64,000 nucleotides of DNA, from the NCBI GenBank assembly GCA_963843515.1, contig CAWJKH010000004.1, positions 35,867-99,866 on the forward strand, written 5' to 3'. Below the pieces are notes generated by a model that was given only the letters and a program-made list of their open reading frames with translations, ran no database searches and was not told the DNA's origin. Of this stretch, positions 15,685-63,652 are shown one piece after another. The stretch is from an uncultured Actinomycetota bacterium (GTDB lineage Bacteria; Actinomycetota; Thermoleophilia; RBG-16-64-13). A program made the position numbers and the translations under genes. Each line of letters begins with the position of its first letter. Position 1 is the stretch's first letter.

Positions 15685-18351
15685 CTACGGTACGAGGCAG
15701 CCCTCTCTTTCTAGGATGTCCCGTCCGCGGCTCTCGAGCTCATTGGCCGCCTCGGCACGGCCCTGCACTCTTCGTAGCTTGGCCAGTTCCAGCAGGATCT
15801 CGCCTGCCCGGGGATGTTCCGGGCGCGTCCTTGCCGTGATGACGTCCAGCGCCTTCTGCAAACGCTCTTCTGCCTCGTTCGGGCGTGCTTGCAGAAGCTC
15901 CAGTTTTCCCCACAAAAGGTAAAGAGCCGAAAACCAGGGGTGGTCTTCGCGCAAGACTTGCCGGGCGAGGGCCAGGCACCGACCGAGCAATCCGGCGCAC
16001 TCCTCGTAGGCGCCTTGCTCCATCGATACCCGGGCGAGCGCCGCCGTGAGGAGGGCCTGAAGCCGTGGTGTTCCTGCTATCTGAAGTCCTTCCTCCGCGC
16101 GCTGCCTGGCCTCCTCGAGCCGGCCTGATTGCGCACACGTCTCGGCGAGGAGCGAGAGCATCTCGGCCCTGGTCCGCGGGTCCTCCCCCAGATCGAGGAA
16201 GCTCAAGCCCCGCCCGGCCAACGAGTAGGCCTCCTCATACCGACGCTGGTCGAGGCGTATCTCCGCCCACGTCGAGAGAGGCAGCCCCAAATTGAAGTTC
16301 TCCTCGGTGTACCGGCTGACGGTCAGCCGGTAACAATCGGCGATGATGCGGTCCGCTTCCCGATAGCAGCCCATCCCCTCCTGGTAGTAAGCGTAGTTGT
16401 TGACCAGCCAGAGATAGTACCGATTACCCGGATCCTCCTGGACCCGGCTGAGAGCTCTGCGGCATACCTCTATGGCTTCTCTGCAGTCGCCGGATTCGTC
16501 GAGGCAGGCGGAGAGCGAAGCGGCGGCGAGGCAGTAGTCGACCTCGTCGAGGATTGGCCCAACCTCGTGACTGGAAAGCGCCTCCTCCAAGAGAGGCCTA
16601 GCCTCTTCGTATCTGTTCTGTCCGAAGAACAGAGTCCGCCCAAGATGCGTGAGAATGCGGGGCACGAGCTTCTCGCCGAAGCTATCGACGGCTCGGGCGC
16701 CCGTCAGTGCTTGCCGCAGCGCGGCCTCGCTTTGCTTCGGGTCTGGCAGGCTAAGCTCGCCCAAACAGGCGAGGGCACGGACGGTCGTAATGTCGAGTAG
16801 ACCGAGCGACTCCCGGGCGTCGGCCGCCAGGGCCCGCGCTGCATCCTGCAGGGGCCGGTCTAGGCCGGCCTCGGCGAACGCCTTCACCCGTAAGGCGAAC
16901 CAATCCACCATCTGCGGCAGCGAGAGACAGCCGCGGCCGTGGAAGTACGCGTCAAGGAAAGCGTGCTGATGATCAGGGGTGACCGAGTGGGGGCCCATTG
17001 CCTGTAGCTTCGCGTCGAAACGCTGGAACAGGAAGGAGTGGATACCGCGCAGCCTTTCTGGATCTCGCCTGGCGAGTCTCGTCCTCAGCGACTCCGCCAT
17101 GATGTCGTGCATCTGATAAACACCGAAAGACCGCTCCAACACAAAGCTGAAGCGGCAGATCTCGCGGAAGTGGCCGAGCGGGAATTGGGTGTTGAACGAG
17201 ACGCAGAGGTCGCGGAACAGTTGGTCGTCGAAGAGGCGCGGCACGGAAAGGACCTCGACGGTATCCTGCTCCGCGGGCGAGAGATAGCGCAGGAAGCGCT
17301 CGGCCATCCTGGCCTCGGCGGTCGCCTCGAAGCCGGTGAAGTCCTCAGGTCCAACGTCCCTGCCGCGCCGCCTGATCTCCTCCATGGTGTCGAGGGCCAG
17401 ATCGAGCAGGAATGGGACGTTGCCGGTCTCCCTCGTTATCCGGTCCTGTAAAGCTGAATCCGTCACCCGGGCGGACACCAGCAACTCTCGGGCATCCTCG
17501 TCGGGAAGGCCCTCTAGTTGGTGTTGCTCGAGCGCCTCACTCCAGTCAGGATCGAGATGCTCCCAGTCGAGCTTCTCCCTACCGCACACGACGCACAGGG
17601 CAAAGGGGAGTTGCAGTGTGAGCTCCCTGACCCATTCATCCCGCAACAGCCTCTGCTCCTCGCTCCGGACGTCGGCAAACAAGGCCTCGTAGGTGTCAAG
17701 GAAGAGGACGCTTACCCTGGGGCACCCCTGCCGATGTTCGACCAGGTCTTCGGCGAAGTATGCCGGCAGACGTTCCTCGATCTCCGCGGCCTCCAATCGG
17801 CTGATGGTTTTCAGATCCTCGCGGCCCCGCTTGACCCACCACGCTTTGAGCGGTCCGCTGGCCTTCTCGACGAGATTGGCAGCCAGGGAGACGAACGGCA
17901 CACCCATGCTGGAGAGCAGGGATGCCGCCATGCTCCCCGCTTCGAAGAGGGGCTTGCCCTCGTCGACCGGGGCGGTGTTGGGTCTCGTCAGTTTCCAGAG
18001 GTAGGCGTAGACCAGGTCGAAGGTCGGAAACGCCACCGAGTGTCGTTCGCTCAGTTGACGCCGCAACGAGAACAGGGCGGTCTGCGGATCCCTCATGGTG
18101 GGAAGGGCGAAATCCACCTCCGCCCATAGGGCGCCGTCGTCCCTCGCCGTCAACCGTTCACGCAACTCTCTCTTGAGCCGAGACTTGCCGATGCCGGCCA
18201 GGCCCCAGTAGACGAGCACTCTTGGCCCCTTGAACGAGGTATCGGCCACGGCGGCGTCGAACGCGGCAAGCAGTTCTTCTCTGTCCACGAACGCCCGAGG
18301 GCCGGGGAGTTCACCACCCGGGCGACGCTGAAATCTGGGTTGCAGCGGCAT
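15685..18351 (-). CDS. STAND-class NTPase (NB-ARC-like) with C-terminal TPR array
   Basis: Walker A VLVYWGLAGIGKSRL and Walker B-like VLFLDTYE, then about 450 aa of TPR-like helical repeats. No recognisable N-terminal effector or DNA-binding domain. Confidence 0.7.
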   Translation of the reverse strand: MPLQPRFQRRPGGELPGPRAFVDREELLAAFDAAVADTSFKGPRVLVYWGLAGIGKSRLKRELRERLTARDDGALWAEVDFALPTMRDPQTALFSLRRQLSERHSVAFPTFDLVYAYLWKLTRPNTAPVDEGKPLFEAGSMAASLLSSMGVPFVSLAANLVEKASGPLKAWWVKRGREDLKTISRLEAAEIEERLPAYFAEDLVEHRQGCPRVSVLFLDTYEALFADVRSEEQRLLRDEWVRELTLQLPFALCVVCGREKLDWEHLDPDWSEALEQHQLEGLPDEDARELLVSARVTDSALQDRITRETGNVPFLLDLALDTMEEIRRRGRDVGPEDFTGFEATAEARMAERFLRYLSPAEQDTVEVLSVPRLFDDQLFRDLCVSFNTQFPLGHFREICRFSFVLERSFGVYQMHDIMAESLRTRLARRDPERLRGIHSFLFQRFDAKLQAMGPHSVTPDHQHAFLDAYFHGRGCLSLPQMVDWFALRVKAFAEAGLDRPLQDAARALAADARESLGLLDITTVRALACLGELSLPDPKQSEAALRQALTGARAVDSFGEKLVPRILTHLGRTLFFGQNRYEEARPLLEEALSSHEVGPILDEVDYCLAAASLSACLDESGDCREAIEVCRRALSRVQEDPGNRYYLWLVNNYAYYQEGMGCYREADRIIADCYRLTVSRYTEENFNLGLPLSTWAEIRLDQRRYEEAYSLAGRGLSFLDLGEDPRTRAEMLSLLAETCAQSGRLEEARQRAEEGLQIAGTPRLQALLTAALARVSMEQGAYEECAGLLGRCLALARQVLREDHPWFSALYLLWGKLELLQARPNEAEERLQKALDVITARTRPEHPRAGEILLELAKLRRVQGRAEAANELESRGRDILEREGCLVP

Positions 18352-23115: not shown

Positions 23116-23195
23116 AGGTGTTCATCGTAGGCCCGGTTCCAGGCGTCCAGCGTATATGGCCGCGCTTAGAGCGCGCTTGGCGAGTGGGGGCAATC

Positions 23196-24680
23196 ATGAC
23201 GACTGATACTCACCGCACCGGGTATCCCTGCCGTATGCCTTCCGATGAACACAAACCGGAACAGGCGAGATTCGCGGCCGAAGAGCGGCGGCGGGTTGCC
23301 GAACAGGAGCAGGCGGTCGCTGAGCGGCCCCTCGCCGCCACGCCCCCACCACCGGGGGCGCCTCCGCCCCTCGAGCAAACGCAACCAACCGGCGCTTCGC
23401 GTTTCCTCTATATCCTGCGCAGTCGCAACTTTCGCCTCCTCTGGATCGGCGAGTTCGTGTCGCTCGTCGGGGGCCAGCTGTTTGTGGTCGCCCTCCCGTG
23501 GCTCGTCCTGGAGCTCACCGGCAACGGTCTGGCCATCGGGACGGTTCTGGCGGTGAGCACGGCTCCCCGCACTGTGTTCATCCTCGTCGGTGGGGGACTC
23601 ACCGACAGGTTCTCGCCCCGCGCGGTCATGTTGTACTCCAACATCGGCCGTATGGTGCTCGTCATTCTGCTAGCGGTGCTCACCGCGCTCGGTGTCATCC
23701 AACTGTGGATGCTCTACGCCATCGGTCTTCTCCTCGGATTCGGGTTCGCCCTCTACCTGCCCGCGCAATCGGCGATGATCCCCCGCCTGGTTTCCGGCGA
23801 CCGGCTCCAGACCGGCAACGCCATCATCCAGGGGACCGCGCAACTGGCGCTTTTCCTGGGACCGGTCCTGGCCGGCGTCCTGATTGCGTTCGTCGGGAGT
23901 GGGGGGAGTACCGTCCCCTCGGCGGCGGGCATCGCCATCGTGTTCGGGCTCAATGCGGTGAGCTTCGCTGTCTCGGCGGTCACGCTCATGATGATCCGGC
24001 TTCCTCAAGCGCGTCGCTTCAGAGGTGGGCGGGCCGCCAAAGGCGTGCTGCGGTCGGTGGGCGAGGGGTTGGCGAACGTCTGGCGGGACAAGACCCTGCG
24101 TCTCTATTTCTTGCTGATCGGCGTGGTGAATCTCGCGCTTCTCGGGCCGGTGTCCGTGGGCGTCCCCGTCCTGGCAGCCACTGAGCTCGCCGGCGGGGCG
24201 CTCGCGTACGGCGGGATCCTGTCGGGTCTCGGGGCCGGCGCTCTCACCGGAGCATTTGCGGGTGGCGCTCTCCGCCGTCCCCCAGGTCGCCTGTTCGCCG
24301 CGGCAATGCTCGGCTCGACCGCCTTGCTTGGGATCGGTCTCGCTCTTCTCGGCGCGGTTCCCTCGACGGCGGCCGCGATCGCGGCCGCGTTCCTGATCGG
24401 ACTCGCGGAGGGGTACCTGACGGTGGAGTTCATCACATGGCTGCAACTGCGCTCGTCCGAAGAAGAGCTCGGTCGTATGATGAGCATCCTCTTGTTCGTT
24501 TCGGTGGGGATGGCGCCGATATCGAACCTGATCGCCGGGGCTCTGATCGGGATGCAGGCGACCTGGTTGATGATCGGCGCGGGATGTCTGATCGTCCTTG
24601 TGGCGATCGTCGCCGCGTTCAGTCCGTCAGTGTGGCGGCTGAACGAGGTGAAGGAGGAGCTTCCTACCGCGGGCGACTAG
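23196..24680 (+). CDS. MFS transporter with N-terminal cytoplasmic Pro-rich extension
   Basis: 12-TM MFS pattern. The start is chosen after the repeat; the ORF track starts at 23118. Confidence 0.65.
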   Translation: MTTDTHRTGYPCRMPSDEHKPEQARFAAEERRRVAEQEQAVAERPLAATPPPPGAPPPLEQTQPTGASRFLYILRSRNFRLLWIGEFVSLVGGQLFVVALPWLVLELTGNGLAIGTVLAVSTAPRTVFILVGGGLTDRFSPRAVMLYSNIGRMVLVILLAVLTALGVIQLWMLYAIGLLLGFGFALYLPAQSAMIPRLVSGDRLQTGNAIIQGTAQLALFLGPVLAGVLIAFVGSGGSTVPSAAGIAIVFGLNAVSFAVSAVTLMMIRLPQARRFRGGRAAKGVLRSVGEGLANVWRDKTLRLYFLLIGVVNLALLGPVSVGVPVLAATELAGGALAYGGILSGLGAGALTGAFAGGALRRPPGRLFAAAMLGSTALLGIGLALLGAVPSTAAAIAAAFLIGLAEGYLTVEFITWLQLRSSEEELGRMMSILLFVSVGMAPISNLIAGALIGMQATWLMIGAGCLIVLVAIVAAFSPSVWRLNEVKEELPTAGD

Positions 24681-34952: not shown

Positions 34953-36587
34953 CTAGGCAGGCGCCGCTGAACCCGGTTGCTGCGTGGGGATCCGCCCCGT
35001 GAAGAACAGGGCGATGACTCCCATAATGGCGAGGATGGCGAGGGCCGCGCGGAGACCGTCTATCTGGGAGGCCTCGTTCTGCTTTACCACCTCGGCAGTG
35101 AGTTCGGGTGAGGCACCGGCTGCGGCCATCTGCGCCTCGAGGTCGGCCTGGGAGATGAAAGGTGCACCCGCGGCCAGGCTCACGTTGGCCTGCGTCTTCA
35201 CCTCTTGGGGCACGTTGGGGTTCTGCTGGATCCCGGCTAGGAACGACACGGTCAGGGCCGCGATCAGCACCGAGCCCGCCAGCGCGGTCCCTATGGAGGC
35301 GCCGAGCTGGCAGGCGGTGTTCTGCAGCCCCCCGACCTCGGGGCTCTTGTCGGGAGGTGCTGCCGAGACGGTCACGCTACCCAGCTGCGACGCCAGCGCC
35401 CCCATGCCCAGACCGATGACGAACATGGGGACGATCACGATCGAGGAATCGGCCCCTACCGCGAGGCTCCCGATCAGCGCCAGGATGCCCACGATGATCG
35501 CCAGCAGACCGACGCGCACCACCCGTCGGGGCGAGACCCGGGGCAGCAGCTTGGGTATGCCCACCGCGGCGAGCAACATCGAGACCGAGAGCGGCACCAG
35601 ATGAAGACCGGTGTCGATAGAAGATAGCCCCAGCGCGACCGAGAGAAACAGCGGGATGACGAAGAAGATGCCGGATATGATCAGGAATTGAAAAAGGAAG
35701 GCAATGAGCCCTCCGGTGAGTTGCGGAAGGCGCAGCAGCGCGGGCGGGATGAGGGGATCCTTGTCGGCACGTTCCAGACGGTGTTGCCAGCGCATGAACA
35801 CCCAGATCAAGAAGAGCCCGGCGATCATGAACCAGAAGGTGAGCGAGAGCCCCAGCAAGGACGTGGTGCCGGGCTTAGGTCGGATCCAGCCCCACACCGA
35901 AGACTTGAGCACGCCCATGACAAAGAGGGCCAGGCCGGCGGTCCAGACCGCTGCGCCGATGAGGTCGAGGTGAGGGCGCTTCTCCATTGGCGGGTCGGCG
36001 GCGCGCCGGGCCAGCGCTAGGATGATGAGAACGAGGACCACCTCGCCGGCGAACACATAGCGCCACGAGAAGTACGTGGTCATGAATCCCCCGACCACCG
36101 GGCCGACGGCGATCGCGATCGCACCGGCGGCAGCCACGAGGCCGTAGGCCCTGGGTCGCCCCTCAGGCGGGAAGTTGCCGGCGACAAGCGCGACGATGGC
36201 CGGCATGATCAGCACTGCCCCGAAGCCCTCGAGGAACGACCAGCCGATGATGAGCACCGTGAGGTTGGGCGCCAACGCCGTCGTTAACGACCCGCAGCCG
36301 TAGATGATGCAGCCCAGCGAGAAGGCCCGCTTGCGGCCGATGATGCTGCCGACTTTGCCGCCGAGGACCATGAGGCTGGCCATGACCAGCGTGTAGAGCG
36401 TAATCGCCGTCTGCACGCCGGTTACGGTCGTTCCCAGATCCGCCGCCACGGTAGCGATCGAAACGTTCATGACCGACATGTCGAGAGCCATAAGGAACTG
36501 ACCGGCGGCCAGCGTGAAGAGGATGAGGCCGGCGCCGGAAGCAGCCGCGCTTGCACCGGTCTTGCCGGCGCCCTTCTTCTCCGCCAT
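34953..36587 (-). CDS. MFS transporter, DHA2 (EmrB/QacA 14-TMS) family
   Basis: 14 TM segments with motif A G..GRK. ATG at 36587 is preceded by GGAGGG. Confidence 0.75.
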   Translation of the reverse strand: MAEKKGAGKTGASAAASGAGLILFTLAAGQFLMALDMSVMNVSIATVAADLGTTVTGVQTAITLYTLVMASLMVLGGKVGSIIGRKRAFSLGCIIYGCGSLTTALAPNLTVLIIGWSFLEGFGAVLIMPAIVALVAGNFPPEGRPRAYGLVAAAGAIAIAVGPVVGGFMTTYFSWRYVFAGEVVLVLIILALARRAADPPMEKRPHLDLIGAAVWTAGLALFVMGVLKSSVWGWIRPKPGTTSLLGLSLTFWFMIAGLFLIWVFMRWQHRLERADKDPLIPPALLRLPQLTGGLIAFLFQFLIISGIFFVIPLFLSVALGLSSIDTGLHLVPLSVSMLLAAVGIPKLLPRVSPRRVVRVGLLAIIVGILALIGSLAVGADSSIVIVPMFVIGLGMGALASQLGSVTVSAAPPDKSPEVGGLQNTACQLGASIGTALAGSVLIAALTVSFLAGIQQNPNVPQEVKTQANVSLAAGAPFISQADLEAQMAAAGASPELTAEVVKQNEASQIDGLRAALAILAIMGVIALFFTGRIPTQQPGSAAPA

Positions 36588-36895
36588 CAGGATCACCCTC
36601 CTATCGCGGTCACGCGTGCAGCGCTCCATGGACCGGCGGCCACGCTGGGCCAGATTGTATCCTGGCGCGGCCTTCCGGGTGCACCTGTAGGCTACCGACC
36701 TACCAGGATGTCTCGGACCCGCCCGGGTGCCTCGGTAGCGGGAATCACGCCCGGCGATGACGTTTCCGCACTGTACGGCCTCCTTCAATGAATAGCGACT
36801 AGAAGACTGCAATAGCGGGAATAGGAGCTTTTCGATCACCCATGTTGGATTGATCGACGATTCCAGCGCCCCCCACAATGGCACAGGAGGAACCC

Positions 36896-37432
36896 ATGGC
36901 AATCGGACCGGTACAGCTGCTTGTGATCGGATTCGAGTCCCCGGAATTCAGGGGCGAGGCTCTCGACGAACTCGCACGGCTCCGCGAGAGCAACGCGGTG
37001 AGGGTCATAGACGCGCTCACGCTCTACAAGGACCCTGAGGGTGTCATGAACATCATACGGATGAGCAACCTGACCGAGGATGAGTCCATCGAGTTCGGCG
37101 CCAAAGTGGGCGCGCTCATCGGCCTGGGTGCGGCCGGCGAGGAAGGATTCGTCGTAGGAGCCGAACTGGGCGCTCTGGCCGGCGAGGAGGGCATCGAGAT
37201 CTTCTCCGACGACACAGGGGCGGACATCCTTGAGAACATCCCCAACGACTCGGCCGTGGCCCTCGTGCTTCTCGAGCATCACTGGGCGATCCCCCTACGG
37301 GACGCGATATGGCGTGCCGGCGGCTTCAATCTGGCGAGTTCCTTCATCAGGCCGCGCGACCTCATTGCCATCGGTCTCGTCAGTGCTGCCGAGGCCGACG
37401 AGCTGGCGGCGCTCGAGAAAGCTGCCGGCTAA
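36896..37432 (+). CDS. Hypothetical protein with Gly-rich segment (DUF1269-like)
   Basis: GGAGGA precedes the ATG. A GxxxG-rich central stretch. Confidence 0.4.
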   Translation: MAIGPVQLLVIGFESPEFRGEALDELARLRESNAVRVIDALTLYKDPEGVMNIIRMSNLTEDESIEFGAKVGALIGLGAAGEEGFVVGAELGALAGEEGIEIFSDDTGADILENIPNDSAVALVLLEHHWAIPLRDAIWRAGGFNLASSFIRPRDLIAIGLVSAAEADELAALEKAAG

Positions 37433-44747: not shown

Positions 44748-44950
44748 CCCCCCGGCTGACAAGGCTTGGCAAGTGCCGAACGGGGCACCCCTGGAATGAT
44801 CCTACCGTCACCAGCCAGACTCTTGTTGTCCGGTGAGTTCCCGTCCGTTTGCTGCTGACGAGTTTGCCACCGAATTGCCACCGAACTCGCCCGAAAAACG
44901 CGAAAACCCGACCTCAGTGACCCGGTTCAACAAGGCGTTCTTGGTTGACT
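44748..44950 (+). repeat. Composite repeat copy with 5' module, lacking 3' tRNA-like module
   Basis: CCCCCGGCTGACAAGGCTTGGCAAGTGCCGAACGGGGCACCCCTGGAATGATCC ... GTTTGCTGCTGACGAGTTTGCCACCGAATTGCCACCGAACTCGCC. Confidence 0.65.
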
Positions 44951-45675: not shown

Positions 45676-45945
<270 letters not shown>

Positions 45946-46062
45946 TCGCGGATTGTGCCTGGGAGCGTCTTTTTCGTACCGGCGCCTGGGAGCAGGTTTC
46001 ACCCCCCGCCTTCCAGGGGATGACCAAGACACAGTTGTCGACCGCTCAAAGGAGGTAGAGAG

Positions 46063-46275
46063 ATGAGTGATGAGACTCCTGTACTGCGGGAAATGCGTCT
46101 TGACCATGATCTCAACGAGCGCCTGACGCACACAAAGGTCGATCCGGCATTCCGTCAGATGAGCGAGGGTCTCCGCCGGGAGGTCGTCGACCTCATCGCG
46201 AACCCGGGCAGGATGGGACTATCTTGCTGTATTGAGGGATGCTGCGTGAGTTGGTGCTGCATTAGGATCACCTGA
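46063..46275 (+). CDS. Putative RiPP precursor peptide, Cys-pair-rich C-terminus (SCIFF/ranthipeptide-like)
   Basis: 70 aa. AAGGAGGT lies 6 nt before the ATG. Helical leader with core ...GLSCCIEGCCVSWCCIRIT. Directly upstream of the rSAM/SPASM gene. Confidence 0.6.
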   Translation: MSDETPVLREMRLDHDLNERLTHTKVDPAFRQMSEGLRREVVDLIANPGRMGLSCCIEGCCVSWCCIRIT

Positions 46276-46299
46276 GCTACTGCGTGACCGATAGGCCTT

Positions 46300-46329
46300 G
46301 AAGCGGGCGTCCCCAGGGGTGCCCGCTTC
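46300..46329 (+). promoter_or_regulatory. Strong stem-loop between precursor and maturase (attenuator/partial terminator candidate)
   Basis: GAAGCGGGC gtccccaggggt GCCCGCTTC: a 9-bp GC-rich stem 25 nt after the precursor stop. Confidence 0.45.
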
Positions 46330-46338
46330 AGTAACTGA

Positions 46339-47790
46339 GTGGCGCATGTCTGGGGAAAGGACCACCCCGTGGGTACGATCGTCTACCCGAGCCGATACAA
46401 CCATCTCGTCCGGATAGCCACCTCAAACCGAGACTCCGTTCCCGTTGTGTGCAATCTGTTGTTCGGCGCTGCTGACGTCACCAACGAGGAGGTCTATCAG
46501 CTGTTTTGGCGAGGGGCGGAGACTGGAGTCATCGATACCGAGGGTCTGACACCAGAGACTCTTGCTCATTTCGTGGACCATGGCTTCCTTTGGTATGAAG
46601 CGTCCGCAGAGGAGGAGGTGGTAGCCAAGCTCGGCGCTTCCTTCGGCGGAAGGGACGAGATCGCAGCTGGCCTTGGCGGGGGGCATTACGGATTCATCAC
46701 CTCACTCGACTGCAACCTTGCTTGCCCGTACTGTTTCCAGCGGGAGAGGGCTGACTCTGTCGGCTTCCTGACTAGCCGGCAGGTCGACCTAGCAATAGAG
46801 GCAATACGAGAGTGCGAGGCTCGCGTGGAGGCTCTGGCTGGGAAGCCTACGCTGCCCAAGATCTCGATCACGGGGGGCGAACCCCTTCTCCAGAACGGAC
46901 TCAGTGTCGAGGTGCTCGACTATCTGATGCTTCGGCTGGACGAGTTGGGGTGGCCCTTCAGCCTCACTACCAATGGGACAGAGCTTGGGCGGTTTGTGGA
47001 CCGGCATGATGTGACGCCACGTTGCCGTAACATCCAAGTCACACTCGATGGGCCCAGGAACATCCACGACCTCCGACGATGCTTCCGAGGCGGCCAGCCC
47101 TCCTTTGATAGGATCGTTGCTGGCATGGATAGCGCCCTTGCCGCTGGCTGGAATATCACACTCCGGGTGAACTTGGATCTGTCGAATGTGGCGCACCTTC
47201 CCGAGTTGGGGTTCTTCATCCGTGATGAGAAACAGTGGGCACGGAATTCCAAGTTCTCAGCCTACGTCTCTCCGGTTACGGACCACGGGCCTCTTGAGTG
47301 CGATGTGGGCGCGTCCGACGAGGCTGACCTGCTCAAAGAGCTGCTAGGGGTAGTAGACGGCGCACCCTGGCTCCGCGATGTGTTCGATATCCGGCACTTC
47401 CGAGGCTTCAACTATGTGGAGCAAATGCTTGTCGGCCAGACCCCTCGGTTCCCAGTAATTACCAGGTGCGAGGCAATCTCAGGGATGTACATCTTCGACC
47501 CAGGGGGGAATATCTACGTTTGCTTGGAGTCCGTTGGTGAGCCCTTGCGGCGGGTCGGGCGATACGATCCCAGGTTAGAGATCGACCATGCGCTGGCAAC
47601 GCGTTGGTCGGACCGCCAAGTCCTCAAGATCCCCGAGTGTGGGGAGTGCAAGATCCGCTTCGTATGCGCGGGTGGGTGCGCCATCGAAGCCTCCAACAAA
47701 GGGCGAGATGCGGCGTGCATGCCGTTCTTGGAGGAAATGGAGACAGCCTGGGATTACTTCGGCCGCACCAGGCCCGATCTGATCCCCTAG
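46339..47790 (+). CDS. Radical SAM / SPASM-domain peptide maturase with N-terminal RRE-like region
   Basis: CNLACPYC (Cx3Cx2C) and a C-terminal CGECKIRFVCAGGC SPASM motif. About 110 aa precede the rSAM core. GTG start. Confidence 0.8.
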   Translation: MAHVWGKDHPVGTIVYPSRYNHLVRIATSNRDSVPVVCNLLFGAADVTNEEVYQLFWRGAETGVIDTEGLTPETLAHFVDHGFLWYEASAEEEVVAKLGASFGGRDEIAAGLGGGHYGFITSLDCNLACPYCFQRERADSVGFLTSRQVDLAIEAIRECEARVEALAGKPTLPKISITGGEPLLQNGLSVEVLDYLMLRLDELGWPFSLTTNGTELGRFVDRHDVTPRCRNIQVTLDGPRNIHDLRRCFRGGQPSFDRIVAGMDSALAAGWNITLRVNLDLSNVAHLPELGFFIRDEKQWARNSKFSAYVSPVTDHGPLECDVGASDEADLLKELLGVVDGAPWLRDVFDIRHFRGFNYVEQMLVGQTPRFPVITRCEAISGMYIFDPGGNIYVCLESVGEPLRRVGRYDPRLEIDHALATRWSDRQVLKIPECGECKIRFVCAGGCAIEASNKGRDAACMPFLEEMETAWDYFGRTRPDLIP

Positions 47791-47822: not shown

Positions 47823-48269
47823 AACCGGCGGACCCCAGAAGGGCCTTTACTAGCCTGGTTCTCCGCTCCCATCGAGAAGGTCTGGGAGGCCTTGACCACA
47901 CCAGACGTGATCAAGCAGTGGTTCTTCGGTGTCGACACCGAGACTGACTGGAAAGTCGGGAGCCGTCTAATTCATCGGGGCCGGTAGCAGGGCAGGCCTT
48001 ACGAGGCCAGAGGCGAGATTGTCCGGTTCGATCCTCCCGAACTCCTAGTGCATACCCACTGGAGCGAACTATCGGGCAAGTCCGATAGCCCGGAGCACTA
48101 TCAAGAGGTGTCCTGGGTGCTATCTAGGGGCGGCGCGGCGACGGAACTCACGATTAGGGAGCGCAATCTTCCGTCGGAGGAGGTGAGAGCCGTTTCGGAA
48201 GAAACCTGGCGGATCGTTCTCAAGAACATCAAGGACCTGGTTGAGAGCGAGGTAGGCAGGGCCGGCTGA
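47823..48269 (+). pseudogene. SRPBCC / AHSA1-domain protein, disrupted (no start codon, in-frame TAG)
   Basis: AWFSAPIEKVWEALTTPDVIKQWFF...GSRLIHRGR*QGRPYEARGEIVRFDPPELLVHTHW. There is an in-frame TAG at about 47986 and no initiator after the upstream stop. Confidence 0.5.
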
Positions 48270-48349: not shown

Positions 48350-50084
48350 TGTCAAGTCCCAGTACCCGCTTTACACTCTGGCTCCGGTTCCTTCTTTACA
48401 GTCAATTCGGCCCCGATCGGGAATGTCGATTTCTCTAGGAGGCTTTGAGCTTCCTCGGTCTGCCTTTGCGAACGCCGAAGGCGCCGTGCTCCTTCTCCTT
48501 GTCGTGCCGAGCGGGATGGGTGCGGATGAGCTTGCCCCCGGCCCAGATCTGGACCGTGTCTCCCGCCAGGCGCACCTCCACCTGCTTGCCGGCGAAAGCC
48601 GTGCCCACCCGATAGGCGGTGCCGGCGAAGCTCAGGTCACCCCGGGAGTCCACTTGGCGAAGGACGGCTGGGTGAGCCAGCTGCGACCTGACTCCCGTCC
48701 CGTGCTGCCGCCTTCTGAGCGCCGGCTCTTCCGCCTCCTCCCGGTGCTTGCGGGCAAGCGTGGCCACGAGCACGTCGTGGTGGAAGATGTTGACCAGGCC
48801 GTCAGGGCCGAACTCGATCTCCACCGTTTTCCCACCTAGGAACCGGCCCACGGTATAGTCAGCCCCCGCCAGGCGCAGGCGCCCGTTCTCGCTCACCTTG
48901 CGGATGGCTCGAGGACCATGAGGCGGGAGGTGGTCCGCCTGTTCCCACTCGGGAGCTTCCTCGGGAAGGAGCGGCCAGAGCCCCTCGGAAGCCGCAGCGG
49001 CGAAGCGATCATGGGGTGAGGCCATACCGATGCCCTGGTGGGGCCGCTCGGTGTTATAGAAGGCCACCCAGGCGTCCAGTTCGGTCTGGGCTTCCTCGAG
49101 CGAGGCGAAGACCCTCCCCGCTAAGAACTCCTTCCGGACGGTCTTGTGGAAGCGCTCCACCTTGCCGGTCGTCGTCGGGGAGCGGGGAGCGGTGAGCAGA
49201 TGCCGGATGCCGTTCTCCCGACAGATGCGGTCGAAGAGCACCTCACCGCGGCTGGGACCGAAGCGGCTCGTGAACACCTTGCCGTTGTCGGTGAGGATCT
49301 GGTCGGGGACGCCATAGCGGCGAAGAGCGAGAGCGAGAGCTTCGCATACCGGCCGGGCCGTGGCCCGGGGCACACAAAGCGCCGAGACGCAGAAGCGGGA
49401 GTGATCATCCAATCCGGTGATGATCTTGAGCTCGGAGCCGTCTTCAAGCTTCACCCCGCCCATGATGTCCATCTGCCAGAGCTCCATGGACCTGCTCCTT
49501 TCCCAGCGCTTATAGTGCTCCCGGCGCCTTCGCCTTTTCGTGGGGTCGATGAGTCCGTGGCGGACGAGACAGCGATAGATGGAGGAACGCCCCGGCAGAG
49601 GTTCCACCCCAGCTCGGGCCAGCTCATGACGGATAGTGCGCGGGCCCCATAAGGGGTGAGTCCGGCGGAGCCCAAGCACCTGGGCTATCACTTCGGGTGG
49701 CATCTGGTGGGGGCAGGATGCTGGCCGGCAGGGGTGGTCCAGAAGACCGGCGATGCCTGATGCTGCATAGCGCCGGAGCCAGGTGTGCACCGTCTGACGG
49801 GTCACCCCATAGCGACGAGCCACGTCGGTGATCGGGGTGCCGCCCATGACCTCGAGGACCGCTTTGTGCCGTTGTTCCACCAGTCCCAGCTTGACGAGCA
49901 TGGTGTCGACCTCCCTCGATACGAGCCATTTCTGACCGTATCGGAGGGATTGGGACCGGAGGCAAAGAGAAGGCAAGTGTCAAATAGGTACCGGAGCCAG
50001 TGTCGCCCAGGTACCGGAGCCGCGTCCTGAAACTGTCAAGCACCTACCGGAGCCAATGTGTCAAGTATCTACCGGGACAACACA
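48350..50084 (-). mobile_element. IS481-family insertion sequence
   Basis: Both termini begin TGT (TGTCAAGTCCC / TGTGTTGTCCC). It is flanked by a 14-bp direct repeat GTCTGCTGCTGACG. The transposase-proximal end carries three copies of an ~25-bp motif (TGTCAA[AG]...TACCGGAGCC). Confidence 0.7.
48435..49901 (-). CDS. IS481 family transposase (DDE, rve core)
   Basis: N-terminal HTH, ITGLDDHSRF...LTDNG...YNTERPHQG. Start at MLVKLG. Confidence 0.8.
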   Translation of the reverse strand: MLVKLGLVEQRHKAVLEVMGGTPITDVARRYGVTRQTVHTWLRRYAASGIAGLLDHPCRPASCPHQMPPEVIAQVLGLRRTHPLWGPRTIRHELARAGVEPLPGRSSIYRCLVRHGLIDPTKRRRRREHYKRWERSRSMELWQMDIMGGVKLEDGSELKIITGLDDHSRFCVSALCVPRATARPVCEALALALRRYGVPDQILTDNGKVFTSRFGPSRGEVLFDRICRENGIRHLLTAPRSPTTTGKVERFHKTVRKEFLAGRVFASLEEAQTELDAWVAFYNTERPHQGIGMASPHDRFAAAASEGLWPLLPEEAPEWEQADHLPPHGPRAIRKVSENGRLRLAGADYTVGRFLGGKTVEIEFGPDGLVNIFHHDVLVATLARKHREEAEEPALRRRQHGTGVRSQLAHPAVLRQVDSRGDLSFAGTAYRVGTAFAGKQVEVRLAGDTVQIWAGGKLIRTHPARHDKEKEHGAFGVRKGRPRKLKAS

Positions 50085-50245
<161 letters not shown>

Positions 50246-50439
50246 TCGAGACCGCCGCATTAAGCCAGCTCTGCCACCTCTCCAAAGCGCAACCGGGATT
50301 GTAGCGGATAGACCGCGCTGGCGCGCCTCGGATGGGGCCGAGCCCCTGTGTGGGACTCGCCCCTCTCGTCTGGGCCCATGCGCGGAAGAGTGGCCCAGCT
50401 CATAGGGCAGCTCGGCCACGTTCCGCCTGCCGCGGCGTC

Positions 50440-61467: not shown

Positions 61468-61950
61468 GTGATGGACGACATACGAACAGGCACTGATGCA
61501 GAGGCGATCGCTGGGCTCATCGAGCACTGTGGGCGATCCTTCGACCGGGTCGCAGCCCTGACCAAGGCCCAAGACTCAGAGTGGCTGGCCCTCGACCTTG
61601 GGATGGGCCAGCTCAAAGCCATGATGGTGCTGGTCAAGCAGCGGCAGCTGGCCGTGGGAGGCCTCGCGCGCGCCCTGGGCCTGTCGGAGCCCGCGGCCAG
61701 CCTACTGGTGGACAAGCTGGTCGGCAGGGGCCTCGTGGTCCGCATGACCGATCCAACCGACCGGCGCCGCACGCTGGTGCTCCCCTCGGAAGAGGGCGAC
61801 TTGCTGGTGGAGCGCCTGCGTCGCAGCCGGAGGGAGTCGCTCTCGGGGTGGCTGGAGCAGGTGGAAGAGCGCGACCTCGAGGCGTTGGCGCGAGGGCTGG
61901 ACGCCCTTGCCGACGTCATCGAGCGGGGAGCAGGCCTTGAGAACGCCTGA
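61468..61950 (+). CDS. MarR family transcriptional regulator
   Basis: Winged-helix MarR pattern (..LKAMMVLVKQRQLAVGGLARALGLSEPAASLLVDKLVGRGLVVR..). An extremely AT-rich promoter with TATAAT lies at 61400-61465. Confidence 0.8.
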   Translation: MMDDIRTGTDAEAIAGLIEHCGRSFDRVAALTKAQDSEWLALDLGMGQLKAMMVLVKQRQLAVGGLARALGLSEPAASLLVDKLVGRGLVVRMTDPTDRRRTLVLPSEEGDLLVERLRRSRRESLSGWLEQVEERDLEALARGLDALADVIERGAGLENA

Positions 61951-62015
61951 ACCCGCGCCGGTCCCCGCTCGTGTGCAGACCGGGTCAGCCACTGCGGTGG
62001 TCGCCGCGCCGGCCG

Positions 62016-63652
62016 CCATGCCGGCAGCCGCGGCACCCTGGGGGGAGACCCTCAGCCGGAAGCGCATTGTCTTCGTGCTCATCAGCGTCATGCTGGGGAT
62101 GCTGCTCAGCGCTCTCGACCAGACGGTGGTCGGCACGGCCATGCCTCGGGTCATCGCCGACCTCAATGGCCTGCCGCACTACGCCTGGGTGGCCACGGCG
62201 TACTTGCTGGCTTCCGCGGTCTCGATGCCCATCTGGGGCAAGCTGTCCGATGCCTACGGCCGCAAACGCTTCTTCATGGCGGGGATGGCGGTGTTCATCG
62301 TGGGATCGGTGCTCTGCGGACAGAGCCAGTCGATGACGGAGCTTATCGCCTTCCGGGCCCTGCAAGGCCTGGGCGCCGGGGCCATGATGCCCATCAACCA
62401 GGCCATTATCGGCGACATCTTCCCTCCCGCCGAGCGGGCCAAATGGTCGGGGATCCTCATGAGCGTCTTCGGCTTCGCCACCATCGTGGGCCCGCTGTTG
62501 GGCGGCTGGATAACCGACAACGTCGGTTGGCGCTGGACCTTCTACGTCAACCTTCCCGTCGGGATCGTGGCCCTCGCTTTCGCCGCCTGGGCGCTCCCCG
62601 GGCACGTGCAACTGCGCAAGCATTCCATCGACTGGCTGGGGAGCGGCTTTCTCGTCGTAGCTGCGGTGCCGCTGCTACTCGCCTTCAGCTGGGCGGGGAC
62701 AGAGTATGCCTGGTCGTCTCCGGTCATCATCGGGCTGTTCGTGTTCTCCGCCGCCATGTGGGGCATCTTCTACCTCCGTGAGATGCGGACCGACGAGCCG
62801 GTGCTCAACCCCCGCCTGTTCCAGAACAGCATCTTCACGGTTTCGACGGTGGCGAGCGCCATCCAGTCGGCCGCGATGTTCGGGGCCATCATGTTCTTGC
62901 CGCTGTATGTCCAGGGCGTCATGGGCAAGACGGCGACGAACTCCGGGACCATCCTCATGCCCATGATGCTGGCGGCCATCGTCAGCAGCATCGGTGCCGG
63001 GCAGCTCATTTCCCGCACCGGAAAGTACAAGGCGGTCACGGTGGCCGGTTTTGTCGCCGTGTGCGTGGGAGGGTTCCTGCTCTCCCGGATGACGATCGAC
63101 ACGACGGCTGCGCGTCTCCTCAGCTACATGATCATCATGGGTCTGGGACTCGGCATCGCGATCAGCACCTTCACGGTGATCGTCCAGAACCAGTACCCCT
63201 CTCATCGCCTTGGCGAGGTGAGCGCCGGCCTGCAGTTCTTCCGGACCATCGGGACGACGGTGGGACTGGCGATCTTCGGGACCATCCTCAACACCCGATT
63301 TGCCGAGTCGCTCACTTCCACCCTGCCGGACCAGCTGAAGGTGGTGGCGACCGACCCAGCCTATGCCGGACAGCTGAACAACCCGCAGGTGCTCCTCTCG
63401 GCCCAGGCGAAGACCCATCTGCTCCAGCTCTTCGGCCAGTTCGGCGAGCAGGGCCAGAAGCTGTTCGACTCCTTCATGGAGGCGGTGCGGCGAAGCCTGG
63501 ACCTCGCAATCAGCGACGTCTTCTTCCTGGGATTCCTCATCTCGGTGGCGGGTCTGGTGGTGGTGCTCTTCCTGAAGGAGGTGCCGCTGCGGCGGAGTCA
63601 TTCGCAGACCGTCGAGGAGGCCGGCGAGCTTCAGCCTGAGCCTGAGGCTTAG
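62016..63652 (+). CDS. MFS transporter, DHA2 family
   Basis: 14 TM segments. Located downstream of marR. The start is uncertain: GTG at 61973 or ATG at 62016. Confidence 0.75.

What the first reader, a model, noticed from the sequence alone, without database searches (positions are those of the whole stretch)
46063..47790. Compact RiPP-like locus: Cys-pair-rich 70-aa precursor plus radical SAM/SPASM maturase
The precursor has an excellent ribosome-binding site and encodes a 50-aa helical leader (..LREMRLDHDLNERLTHTKVDPAFRQMSEGLRREVVDLIANPGRM) followed by the core GLSCCIEGCCVSWCCIRIT. The core holds six Cys in three CC pairs within its last 17 residues. 63 nt downstream, an rSAM enzyme carries CNLACPYC, a C-terminal SPASM or twitch cluster (CGECKIRFVCAGGC plus further Cys), and an about 110-aa N-terminal extension of the kind that forms RRE leader-binding domains. 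This matches the logic of SCIFF/ranthipeptide or sactipeptide systems (thioether crosslinks from Cys to acceptor carbons). However, the vicinal Cys-pair core and the long leader differ from canonical SCIFF peptides, and such loci are mostly described in Firmicutes rather than in a high-GC actinobacterial-type genome. No protease or exporter is adjacent, so the locus is a minimal two-gene cluster.
Basis: partly seen in the sequence, partly recalled or inferred. Interest (0 to 1): 0.85.

Follow-up and report, generated by a model that had tools for sequence, protein, structure and literature searches.

The report
Cys-pair peptide plus radical-SAM maturase
A real two-gene cassette encodes a small peptide ending in three cysteine pairs and, next to it, a dedicated radical-SAM enzyme that most likely cross-links it. 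The pair belongs to a rare, unnamed family scattered across bacterial phyla and Methanosarcina, and its chemistry and purpose are untested.

Summary

The pair is conserved. About 55 maturases share at least 39% identity with it, and a matching peptide lies upstream in all 12 such loci examined. Forty distinct precursors share an invariant core, CC-φ-[EQ]-G-CC-V-S-[WFHY]-CC-[IV]-[QRK]-φ. Core identity is 79% against 23% for the leader, with many synonymous codon changes.

Hosts include Ilumatobacter, Chloroflexi, cyanobacteria, Thiodiazotropha and Methanosarcina. Neighbouring genes differ between loci, so the conserved unit is two genes.

The enzyme reaches no curated NCBIfam family cut-off. 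Its best matches are Cys-rich-peptide maturases; anaerobic sulfatase maturase scores far lower. CteB, the SCIFF thioether synthase, is the closest solved structure.

Thioether cross-linking is the most likely chemistry, but this is inferred. I rate it a new variant of a known kind, of moderate interest. In this window the cassette sits with an IS481-type transposase between duplicated tRNA-Ser 3' segments.

The parts
46050..46055 (+). Shine-Dalgarno sequence AGGAGG, 7 nt upstream of the precursor ATG
   Evidence: Read directly from the sequence.
46063..46224 (+). Leader region of the precursor (residues 1-54). It contains the family motif KVDPAFRxxSEGL, which I infer to be the recognition sequence for the RRE.
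   Evidence: The motif DPAF[RK]xx[TS]xG[LIV] is conserved in most precursors. Mean leader identity is only 23%. Binding to the RRE is inferred.
46225..46275 (+). Core of the precursor (residues 55-70, CCIEGCCVSWCCIRIT) plus the stop codon. It reads as three pentads, CC-aliphatic-polar-x.
   Evidence: Six Cys and the Ser are invariant in 40 of 40 distinct precursors. Core identity is 79%. Synonymous codon changes are common at invariant residues.
46298..46331 (+). A 15-bp G+C-rich hairpin between the precursor and the maturase. It may be an attenuator or an mRNA-stabilising or processing structure.
   Evidence: Predicted fold. Strong intergenic hairpins occur in about half of the homologous loci, so they are not universal. 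There is no U-tract, and the pattern scan reported no terminator here. The function is inferred.
46369..46683 (+). N-terminal RiPP recognition element (RRE) of the maturase, a βββααα winged helix-turn-helix
46684..47466 (+). Radical SAM core (partial TIM barrel) with the CX3CX2C motif CNLACPYC at 46711-46734
   Evidence: PF04055 scores 54 bits. The full-length AF2 model has pLDDT 91.6. The closest structures are CteB, then anSME, then ChlB.
47467..47790 (+). SPASM domain with seven conserved Cys (C367, C385, C424, C427, C433, C437, C450), the C-terminal tail and the stop codon
   Evidence: TIGR04085 scores 40.1 bits against a cut-off of 27. Six of the seven Cys are invariant and C450 is at least 90% conserved in the 60-sequence alignment. 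No eighth conserved Cys was found.
45788..45946 (.). Left copy of a 159-nt direct repeat. It holds a remnant of the 3' 51 nt of tRNA-Ser (about 45897-45950, minus strand) plus the tRNA's downstream flank.
   Evidence: 91% identical to 50085-50243. Partial tRNA-like hits were found at 45897-45950.
48435..49976 (-). IS481-type transposase (rve, LZ_Tnp_IS481 and Mu-transposase C domains) inside the repeat-bounded segment. This is context for the cassette's mobility, not part of the RiPP system.
   Evidence: Pfam hits.
50085..50283 (-). Intact tRNA-Ser(cga) at 50193-50283 and the right copy of the 159-nt direct repeat at 50085-50243
   Evidence: ARAGORN, Rfam tRNA at 55.8 bits and the repeat search.

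Best explanation
This is a self-contained two-gene RiPP cassette.

Shown:
- The 70-aa peptide is a translated, conserved partner of the enzyme.
- The enzyme is a three-domain maturase: an RRE, a radical SAM core and a seven-Cys SPASM domain.

Inferred:
- The RRE binds the leader, probably through the DPAFRxxSEGL motif, and feeds the C-terminal 16-residue core into the active site.
- There, 5'-deoxyadenosyl radicals abstract hydrogen atoms from carbon atoms of non-Cys core residues.
- The resulting carbon radicals are captured by Cys thiolates, possibly held on the open iron of auxiliary cluster I as in CteB. This would give several intramolecular thioether (sactionine- or ranthionine-type) rings.
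- The period-5 layout CC-φ-[E/Q | S | Q/R/K]-x suggests one or two short rings per pentad.
- The core is far more conserved than the leader, and no protease or exporter travels with the pair. The product therefore probably has one fixed molecular partner or physiological role, as is thought for SCIFF, rather than being an arms-race bacteriocin.
- The cassette spreads horizontally. In this window it lies with an IS481-type transposase between duplicated tRNA-Ser 3' segments.

My confidence that this is a genuine precursor and maturase pair is about 0.9. My confidence that the chemistry is thioether formation is about 0.55. The single confidence value given (0.6) is for the whole statement, chemistry included.
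For: Pairing and translation:
- A CC-CC-CC peptide lies upstream of the maturase in all 12 loci examined whose enzyme is at least 41% identical, including one from Methanosarcina.
- Forty distinct precursors have an invariant Cys6/Ser core. Core identity is 79% against 23% for the leader.
- Synonymous codon changes outnumber non-synonymous ones in the core, 277 to 160.

Enzyme class:
- It has the CX3CX2C motif and passes the SPASM model.
- Seven Cys are conserved in the SPASM domain.

Thioether lead:
- The best NCBIfam matches are all maturases of Cys-rich peptides. Several of these are proven thioether synthases: CefB 100.9 bits, TIGR04463 89.2, Clo7bot 85.9, PapB 81.1, geopeptide 80.4, QhpD 67.1 and SCIFF 66.9.
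- The closest solved structure, by sequence profile and by fold, is the SCIFF thioether synthase CteB over its full length, including the RRE.
- The GYW signature of cyclopropyl synthases is absent (sequence; PMC10878394).

Two-gene unit: neighbouring genes differ in every locus.

Mobility:
- The cassette is bounded by direct repeats that include a tRNA-Ser 3' part, and an IS481-type transposase lies inside.
- Cassette GC is 59.3% against 63.7% for the window.
- The Thiodiazotropha locus lies among relaxase, integrase and transposase genes.
Against: - No product was observed, so the cross-link type, number and topology are unknown.
- All family HMM scores are far below their curated cut-offs. 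Function is therefore extrapolated across roughly 20-30% identity.
- rSAM/SPASM enzymes with an RRE also catalyse C-C, C-O, cyclopropane and epimerisation chemistry. TigE, SuiB and YhhB/FxsB-type enzymes also appear among the matches.
- Six Cys against about ten other residues leaves few obvious acceptors. Vicinal Cys pairs are not a known thioether donor pattern.
- The open Aux I site is inferred only from counting conserved Cys.
- The hairpin and the island boundaries are suggestive, not proven.
Confidence: 0.6

Rival explanations
1. The pair is the same precursor and maturase, but the radical chemistry is not thioether formation. Candidates are a cyclophane C-C link from the conserved aromatic residue (a [WFHY]-C-C triad, triceptide-like), cyclopropanation or epimerisation of the conserved Ile/Val, or oxidation of Cys or Ser to formylglycine. 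In this reading the six Cys are left free to bind a metal or to form vicinal disulfides.
For: - The single aromatic position varies only among W, F, H and Y. From my own knowledge, that is the residue set used by three-residue cyclophane enzymes.
- The YhhB and FxsB models give weak hits of 52.9 and 38.1 bits.
- TigE, an Ile cyclopropyl synthase, is the third-best PDB sequence match and the top RRE structural match (PMC10878394).
- anSME is the second-closest structure.
- Ile/Val and Ser positions in the core are strongly conserved.
Against: - Thioether-associated and Cys-rich-peptide maturase models outscore the cyclophane, ryptide and anSME models.
- CteB is the best match by both sequence and fold.
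- The GYW motif that defines cyclopropyl synthases is absent.
- Six invariant Cys make up the dominant conserved feature of the core.
- anSME has no RRE.
Confidence: 0.25
2. The mature peptide is not a secreted antimicrobial. It is an intracellular or cell-associated functional peptide, such as a metal-binding (Cu, Zn or Fe-S), redox or signalling molecule. This rival concerns purpose and is compatible with either chemistry.
For: - The core is almost invariant across phyla and domains while the leader drifts, 79% against 23% identity. From my own knowledge this resembles SCIFF, PqqA and MftA rather than bacteriocins.
- No exporter, immunity gene or dedicated protease is conserved with the pair.
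- Six Cys in CC pairs resemble metallothionein-like ligand sets (my own knowledge).
Against: - No metal-handling or redox partner genes are consistently nearby.
- The cassette is rare, patchy and mobile, which fits an accessory or competitive trait better than a core cofactor.
- Some loci have peptidases within about 1 kb: three C1 peptidases, an S8 subtilase, and a TldD/PmbA pair. These could process a secreted product.
Confidence: 0.35
3. The enzyme is a non-RiPP radical SAM protein, such as an anaerobic sulfatase maturase or a cofactor-biosynthesis enzyme, and the small ORF is a chance reading frame.
For: - anSME is the second-best solved structure match.
- Weak hits to the MoaA and NirJ models exist.
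Against: - TIGR03942 scores 44.6 bits against a cut-off of 349.
- The enzyme has an RRE, which anSME lacks.
- The peptide is co-conserved with the enzyme in 12 of 12 close loci and is under purifying selection.
- No sulfatase is encoded nearby.
Confidence: 0.02

Closest known systems
SCIFF peptides and their maturase ScfB/CteB (TIGR03973/TIGR03974; PDB 5WGG)
   Same: - Six Cys in a short peptide.
- A two-gene unit without a dedicated protease or exporter.
- A core that is more conserved than the leader.
- A maturase with RRE, rSAM and seven-Cys SPASM architecture.
- CteB is the closest solved structure by profile (E 7e-24) and by fold (E 6e-16).
   Different: - The maturase scores 66.9 bits against a cut-off of 425.
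- The precursor matches no NCBIfam model at E up to 0.1, which would include the SCIFF model if the library holds it.
- The Cys are arranged as three vicinal pairs with period 5 at the extreme C-terminus.
- The peptide is longer, 62-102 aa.
- The hosts are Actinobacteria, Chloroflexi, Cyanobacteria, Gammaproteobacteria and Methanosarcina rather than Clostridia.
PapB/freyrasin-type ranthipeptides (NF047865) and QhpD/QhpC
   Same: - A repeated short Cys-containing motif in the core.
- rSAM/SPASM chemistry that links Cys S to the Cβ or Cγ of Asp or Glu.
- The conserved E/Q and Q/R/K residues three positions after the first Cys of a pair could play the acceptor role.
   Different: - PapB scores 81.1 bits against a cut-off of 340, and QhpD 67.1 against 453.
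- There is no CxxxD motif.
- The middle pentad has Ser instead of an acidic or amide residue.
- The donors are vicinal pairs.
- PapB as modelled (330 positions) lacks the N-terminal region that is matched here.
CefB 'Cys-every-fifth' maturase (NF038107), TIGR04463 and Clo7bot (TIGR04334): computationally defined Cys-rich-peptide maturase families
   Same: - These are the best-scoring HMMs, at 100.9, 89.2 and 85.9 bits.
- By their names they target Cys-rich or periodic-Cys peptides.
- The core here also has a period of five residues.
   Different: - All scores are far below the cut-offs of 600, 525 and 600 bits.
- The periodic unit here is a Cys pair.
- I found no paper in the held library describing these families or their chemistry, so they offer no mechanistic anchor.
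TigE/TvgB cyclopropylglycine synthases (PDB 8VPO)
   Same: - The same RRE, rSAM and SPASM architecture.
- The substrates are short repeated motifs containing Ile or Val.
   Different: - The GYW motif, whose Tyr ligates Aux I and which defines this group (PMC10878394), is absent.
- The substrate here is dominated by Cys.

Membership tests
rSAM/SPASM RiPP maturase (general class) | CX3CX2C radical SAM cluster motif | tested here: met
   CNLACPYC at 46711-46734. PF04055 scores 54 bits against a cut-off of 29.5. The motif is invariant in 60 homologues.
rSAM/SPASM RiPP maturase (general class) | C-terminal SPASM domain with seven Cys, including CX2CX5CX3C | tested here: met
   TIGR04085 scores 40.1 bits against a cut-off of 27. 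C367, C385, C424-x2-C427-x5-C433-x3-C437 and C450 are conserved.
rSAM/SPASM RiPP maturase (general class) | RiPP recognition element (βββααα winged helix-turn-helix) | tested here: met
rSAM/SPASM RiPP maturase (general class) | Adjacent, co-conserved small precursor peptide | tested here: met
   Found in 12 of 12 loci examined with a maturase at least 41% identical. Forty distinct precursors were collected.
SCIFF / ScfB system | Maturase reaches the TIGR03974 cut-off of 425 bits | tested here: not met
   66.9 bits.
SCIFF / ScfB system | Precursor matches the SCIFF peptide model | tested here: not met
   No NCBIfam or Pfam family matches the 70-aa peptide at E up to 0.1. I did not confirm separately that TIGR03973 is in the NCBIfam library used.
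Ranthipeptide (PapB family) | Maturase reaches the NF047865 cut-off of 340 bits | tested here: not met
   81.1 bits.
Ranthipeptide / sactipeptide (chemical classes) | Cys S linked to Cβ or Cγ (ranthionine) or to Cα (sactionine) of an acceptor residue | not testable with these tools
   This needs MS/MS and NMR of the modified peptide.
Cys-every-fifth CefB (NF038107) | Maturase reaches the cut-off of 600 bits | tested here: not met
   100.9 bits. This is the best hit of all families but is far below the threshold.
Anaerobic sulfatase-maturating enzyme | Reaches the TIGR03942 cut-off of 349 bits, has no RRE, and acts on a sulfatase substrate | tested here: not met
   44.6 bits. An RRE is present. 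No sulfatase gene lies nearby.
Cyclopropylglycine synthases (TvgB/TigE) | Strictly conserved GYW motif, whose Tyr ligates Aux I | tested here: not met
   There is no GYW in the 473-aa sequence (translation). The motif definition comes from PMC10878394.
Three-residue cyclophane (triceptide) maturases YhhB/FxsB | Reaches the NF041707 cut-off of 445 bits or the TIGR04269 cut-off of 370 bits | tested here: not met
   52.9 and 38.1 bits.

The most novel reading that the evidence does not exclude
The triple vicinal-Cys core is the substrate for a cross-link pattern not yet described for radical SAM RiPPs. One example would be both sulfurs of a CC pair bridged to the same or neighbouring acceptor carbons, giving a rigid ladder of fused small rings. 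Another would be a scaffold that holds a metal or Fe-S centre. Because the core is almost invariant from Actinobacteria to Methanosarcina and travels as a bare two-gene mobile cassette, the product would be a conserved functional peptide (cofactor-like, metal-binding or signalling) rather than an antibiotic.
Probability: 0.2. Interest if true: 0.8.

Novelty: new variant of a known kind. Interest (0 to 1): 0.55.

Why it matters
Radical SAM/SPASM maturases are a main source of new peptide chemistry. This family combines several useful properties:
- It has a sharply defined, tiny substrate: a 16-residue core with six invariant Cys.
- It needs only two genes.
- It is not covered by any curated family model.
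- The full-text searches I ran in the held library found no description of it.

It is therefore an easy target for heterologous co-expression and mass spectrometry.

If the chemistry is ordinary thioether formation, the result adds one more ranthipeptide- or sactipeptide-like family and extends such systems to Acidimicrobiia-like Actinobacteria, Chloroflexi, cyanobacteria and a methanogen.

If the vicinal Cys pairs are used in a new way, or if the product is a conserved physiological peptide, it would bear on the unresolved question of what SCIFF-like, exporter-less Cys-rich RiPPs are for.

Tried and rejected
- **Scans of genome and metagenome collections.** Only four close loci came back (L001, L081, L082, L083); the rest were 22-38% relatives.
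- **Naming the roughly 30%-identical relatives** (Thiorhodococcus, Theionarchaea, Rheinheimera, Bacillus, Acidobacteria and others). None reaches any NCBIfam cut-off. Their partners differ or are unclear, so they give no mechanistic anchor.
- **Full-text searches.** I searched for the core strings (CCVSWCC and similar), 'Cys-every-fifth', TIGR04463, Clo7bot, geopeptide, 'vicinal cysteine' with radical SAM, and ranthipeptide with the host taxa. None found a description of this family. The supplement of the 15,000-rSAM compendium (PMC10288494) is not held.
- **A conserved protease or exporter.** Rejected. Peptidases appear near only three loci and are of three unrelated types.
- **A canonical intrinsic terminator or sigma-70 promoter around the cassette.** None was found.
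- **Taxonomic origin of the window.** I did not establish it. The contig carries no name in the protein collection. The nearest maturase, at 64% identity, is from an Ilumatobacter MAG.
Full report
**1. Observation**

The small ORF runs from ATG 46063 to TGA 46275 and encodes 70 aa. AGGAGG lies 7 nt upstream, at 46050-46055. The peptide ends in CCIEGCCVSWCCIRIT, with Cys at residues 55, 56, 60, 61, 65 and 66. The pattern CCx3CCx3CC occurs once in the six-frame translation of the whole window.

The downstream ORF ends at 47790. It carries CNLACPYC at 46711-46734 and, near its C-terminus, C-x17-C ... CGECKIRFVCAGGC ... C.

The mechanical ORF starts at GTG 46339. Every homologue starts 3-4 residues before the conserved YPSxYNHL, and the database gene call is 473 aa (P0001). 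I therefore take GTG 46369 as the start, which gives a 93-nt gap to the precursor stop.

**2. The enzyme**

Pfam finds Radical_SAM (54 bits) and Fer4_12. NCBIfam finds the SPASM domain above its cut-off, at 40.1 bits against 27. No named family is reached:

| Model | Bits | Cut-off |
|---|---|---|
| CefB 'Cys-every-fifth' | 100.9 | 600 |
| TIGR04463 | 89.2 | 525 |
| Clo7bot | 85.9 | 600 |
| PapB | 81.1 | 340 |
| Geopeptide | 80.4 | 400 |
| QhpD | 67.1 | 453 |
| SCIFF maturase | 66.9 | 425 |
| Anaerobic sulfatase maturase | 44.6 | 349 |

That condition is not met.

A family profile searched against PDB sequences puts CteB first (5WGG, the SCIFF thioether synthase, E 7e-24). Next come anSME, TigE (8VPO) and ChlB. 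A 60-sequence AlphaFold model has mean pLDDT 91.6. Foldseek again ranks CteB first, over the full length (E 6e-16), followed by anSME, ChlB, SuiB, BlsE and SkfB.

Across 60 homologues the three radical SAM Cys and six SPASM Cys are invariant (C367, C385, C424, C427, C433, C437). C450 is conserved in at least 90%. I found no eighth conserved Cys. From my own knowledge of CteB, that is the situation in which auxiliary cluster I keeps an open iron that can bind a substrate Cys. This point is an inference.

**3. The N-terminal domain is an RRE**

Both models give β(11-17)-β(23-29)-β(34-37)-α(40-52)-α(62-70)-α(80-91).

- Pfam PqqD is not hit.
- Foldseek on the isolated domain is not significant.
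- A profile of 15 N-terminal domains hits TigE residues 9-124 with E 4.5e-5. The TigE crystal structure paper defines residues 3-85 as its RRE (PMC10878394).

Many of these are the reference RRE structures listed in PMC12710340.

**4. The peptide is real and belongs to the enzyme**

The word-indexed protein search found about 55 maturases that are 39-65% identical. Their sources are named as Ilumatobacter, Chloroflexi, Methanosarcina, Candidatus Thiodiazotropha and the cyanobacterium Roseofilum, plus many unnamed metagenome contigs.

In every locus I could read, a small ORF with the same C-terminus lies 26-600 nt upstream on the same strand. These loci were the window, L001, L081, L082, L083, L161, L163, L165, L166, L167, L169, L170 and L171.

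A precursor profile searched against 1.84 billion representative proteins found 29 hits. Twenty-eight are 62-102-aa peptides of this type.

Pooling gives 40 distinct precursors:
- The six Cys and the Ser are invariant in 40 of 40.
- The consensus is CC-[IVFL]-[EQ]-G-CC-V-S-[WFHY]-CC-[IV]-[QRK]-[ILV], followed by 1-3 residues (up to nine in single cases).
- Mean pairwise identity is 79% in the core and 23% in the leader.
- The leader keeps a motif DPAF[RK]xx[TS]xG[LIV].

Across 10 loci, the last 16 codons differ by 277 synonymous and 160 non-synonymous codon pairs. TGC/TGT, GTN, AGT/AGC and GGN alternate at invariant residues. The frame is therefore under purifying selection as protein.

A 33%-identical enzyme from a Korobacteraceae MAG is paired with a diverged peptide...DCCFQACKCCLQITISRG, plus a follower sequence. 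This suggests that enzyme and core co-vary. Enzymes at 28-32% identity have other partners.

**5. Neighbourhood**

Genes around the pair differ in every locus.
- Exporters or peptidases appear only sporadically and are of unrelated types. Examples are MatE or ABC transporters in two loci, three C1 peptidases in L167, an S8 subtilase in L165, and a convergent TldD/PmbA pair in L083.
- A 15-bp G+C-rich hairpin at 46298-46331 separates the genes. Comparable hairpins exist in about half of the loci. I list it as a possible attenuator or mRNA-processing element, and its function is inferred.

**6. Context in this window**

The cassette lies between two 91%-identical 159-nt direct repeats, 45788-45946 and 50085-50243. 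Each repeat comprises the 3' 51 nt of tRNA-Ser(cga) plus about 108 nt of its downstream flank. The intact tRNA is at 50193-50283 on the minus strand.

The same segment holds a truncated AHSA1-like fragment (48048-48269) and an IS481-type transposase (48435-49976, minus strand).

Cassette GC is 59.3% against 63.7% for the window, and GC3 is about 0.70 against 0.74-0.88 for other long genes.

In the Thiodiazotropha contig the pair sits among relaxase, integrase and transposase genes.

Together with the patchy distribution across phyla and domains, this points to horizontal spread of a bare two-gene module. It is not proven that the repeats are att sites.

**7. Mechanism**

Shown:
- a translated, conserved peptide;
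- an enzyme built from an RRE, a radical SAM core and a seven-Cys SPASM domain;
- strict pairing of the two.

Inferred:
- The RRE binds the leader motif.
- The core enters the active site.
- 5'-deoxyadenosyl radicals abstract hydrogen from non-Cys residues.
- Cys thiolates capture the carbon radicals to give thioether rings.

The inference rests on which families and structures are nearest, on the dominance of invariant Cys in the core, and on the absence of the GYW motif of cyclopropyl synthases.

The core reads as three pentads: CC-I-E-G, CC-V-S-W and CC-I-[Q/R]-I. The polar residue three positions after the first Cys of each pair (E/Q, S, Q/R/K) is a candidate acceptor, by analogy with the Cys-to-Asp/Glu links made by PapB and QhpD (PMC10114670). 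This is speculation.

The main rival is other radical chemistry. A cyclophane at the [WFHY]-C-C triad is the most attractive option, with the Cys left free for metal binding or disulfides.

The core is more conserved than the leader, and no exporter, immunity gene or protease is conserved with the pair. To me this argues for a fixed molecular partner or a physiological role, as is suspected for SCIFF, rather than a diversifying bacteriocin.

**8. Comparison and novelty**

In architecture the system resembles SCIFF/CteB most closely. It fails every membership test by HMM cut-off, and the peptide matches no curated model.

Full-text searches for the core strings, and for the names of the best-hitting computational families, found no description. 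One 2026 preprint reports pipeline-called ranthipeptide clusters in Acidimicrobiia without detail. An rSAM RiPP in such genomes is therefore not surprising in itself.

I rate it a new variant of a known kind: an unnamed precursor and maturase family within the rSAM/SPASM Cys-rich RiPPs. Interest is moderate, at 0.55.

The reading that would raise it is a new way of using vicinal Cys pairs, or a conserved cofactor-like function. I give that about 0.2 probability.

Noticed in passing
window 45788-45946 and 50085-50243; weaker third copy at 44749-44928: A 159-nt direct repeat (91% identical) comprises the 3' 51 nt of tRNA-Ser(cga) plus about 108 nt of its downstream flank. A third, weaker copy of the flank alone lies about 940 nt further left. 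The repeats bracket the RiPP cassette, a gene fragment and an IS element. They could be att-like island ends or a local duplication.
   Followed up: partly
window 48435-49976 (-) and 49973-50076: An IS481-type transposase (rve, LZ_Tnp_IS481 and Mu-transposase C domains) has four tandem imperfect repeats of about 23 nt (GCAAGTGTCAAATAGGTACCGGA-like) next to its 5' end. No inverted copy was found at the other end at up to 3 mismatches.
   Followed up: partly
window 48048-48269 (+): A 73-aa ORF matches only the C-terminal part of the AHSA1/SRPBCC domain (profile positions 70-125 of 125). It is probably a truncated gene remnant next to the IS element.
   Followed up: partly
window 23118-24680, 34953-36902, 61907-63652: There are three MFS efflux transporter genes in one 64-kb window (two DHA2/EmrB-type, one of another MFS subfamily). 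None is adjacent to the RiPP cassette, and I saw no evidence that they are linked to it.
   Followed up: no
window 15685-18351 (-): An 888-aa protein has a C-terminal half with weak similarity to the FxSxx-COOH system TPR protein (61.6 bits against a cut-off of 300). Its significance is unknown.
   Followed up: no
L173 1445-6568 (metagenome contig, maturase 28% identical): This is a different unnamed system. It has two rSAM/SPASM genes, two 170-194-aa partner proteins with a shared N-terminal region and Cys-bearing C-terminal parts, and a C1 peptidase directly downstream of the first rSAM.
   Followed up: partly
L168 7674-7889 (Korobacteraceae MAG, maturase 33% identical): A diverged precursor, ...DCCFQACKCCLQITISRG, carries a 19-residue follower. 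It has five Cys and the middle pentad is shortened. It may mark the edge of the family and could help to map which core positions are essential.
   Followed up: partly
L083 4601-7335 (-), L167 9880-14293 (+), L165 10391-11581 (+): Peptidase genes of three unrelated types lie within about 1 kb downstream of the maturase in three loci: a TldD/PmbA pair, three papain-like C1 peptidases, and an S8 subtilase. They may be lineage-specific leader peptidases, or the proximity may be coincidental.
   Followed up: partly
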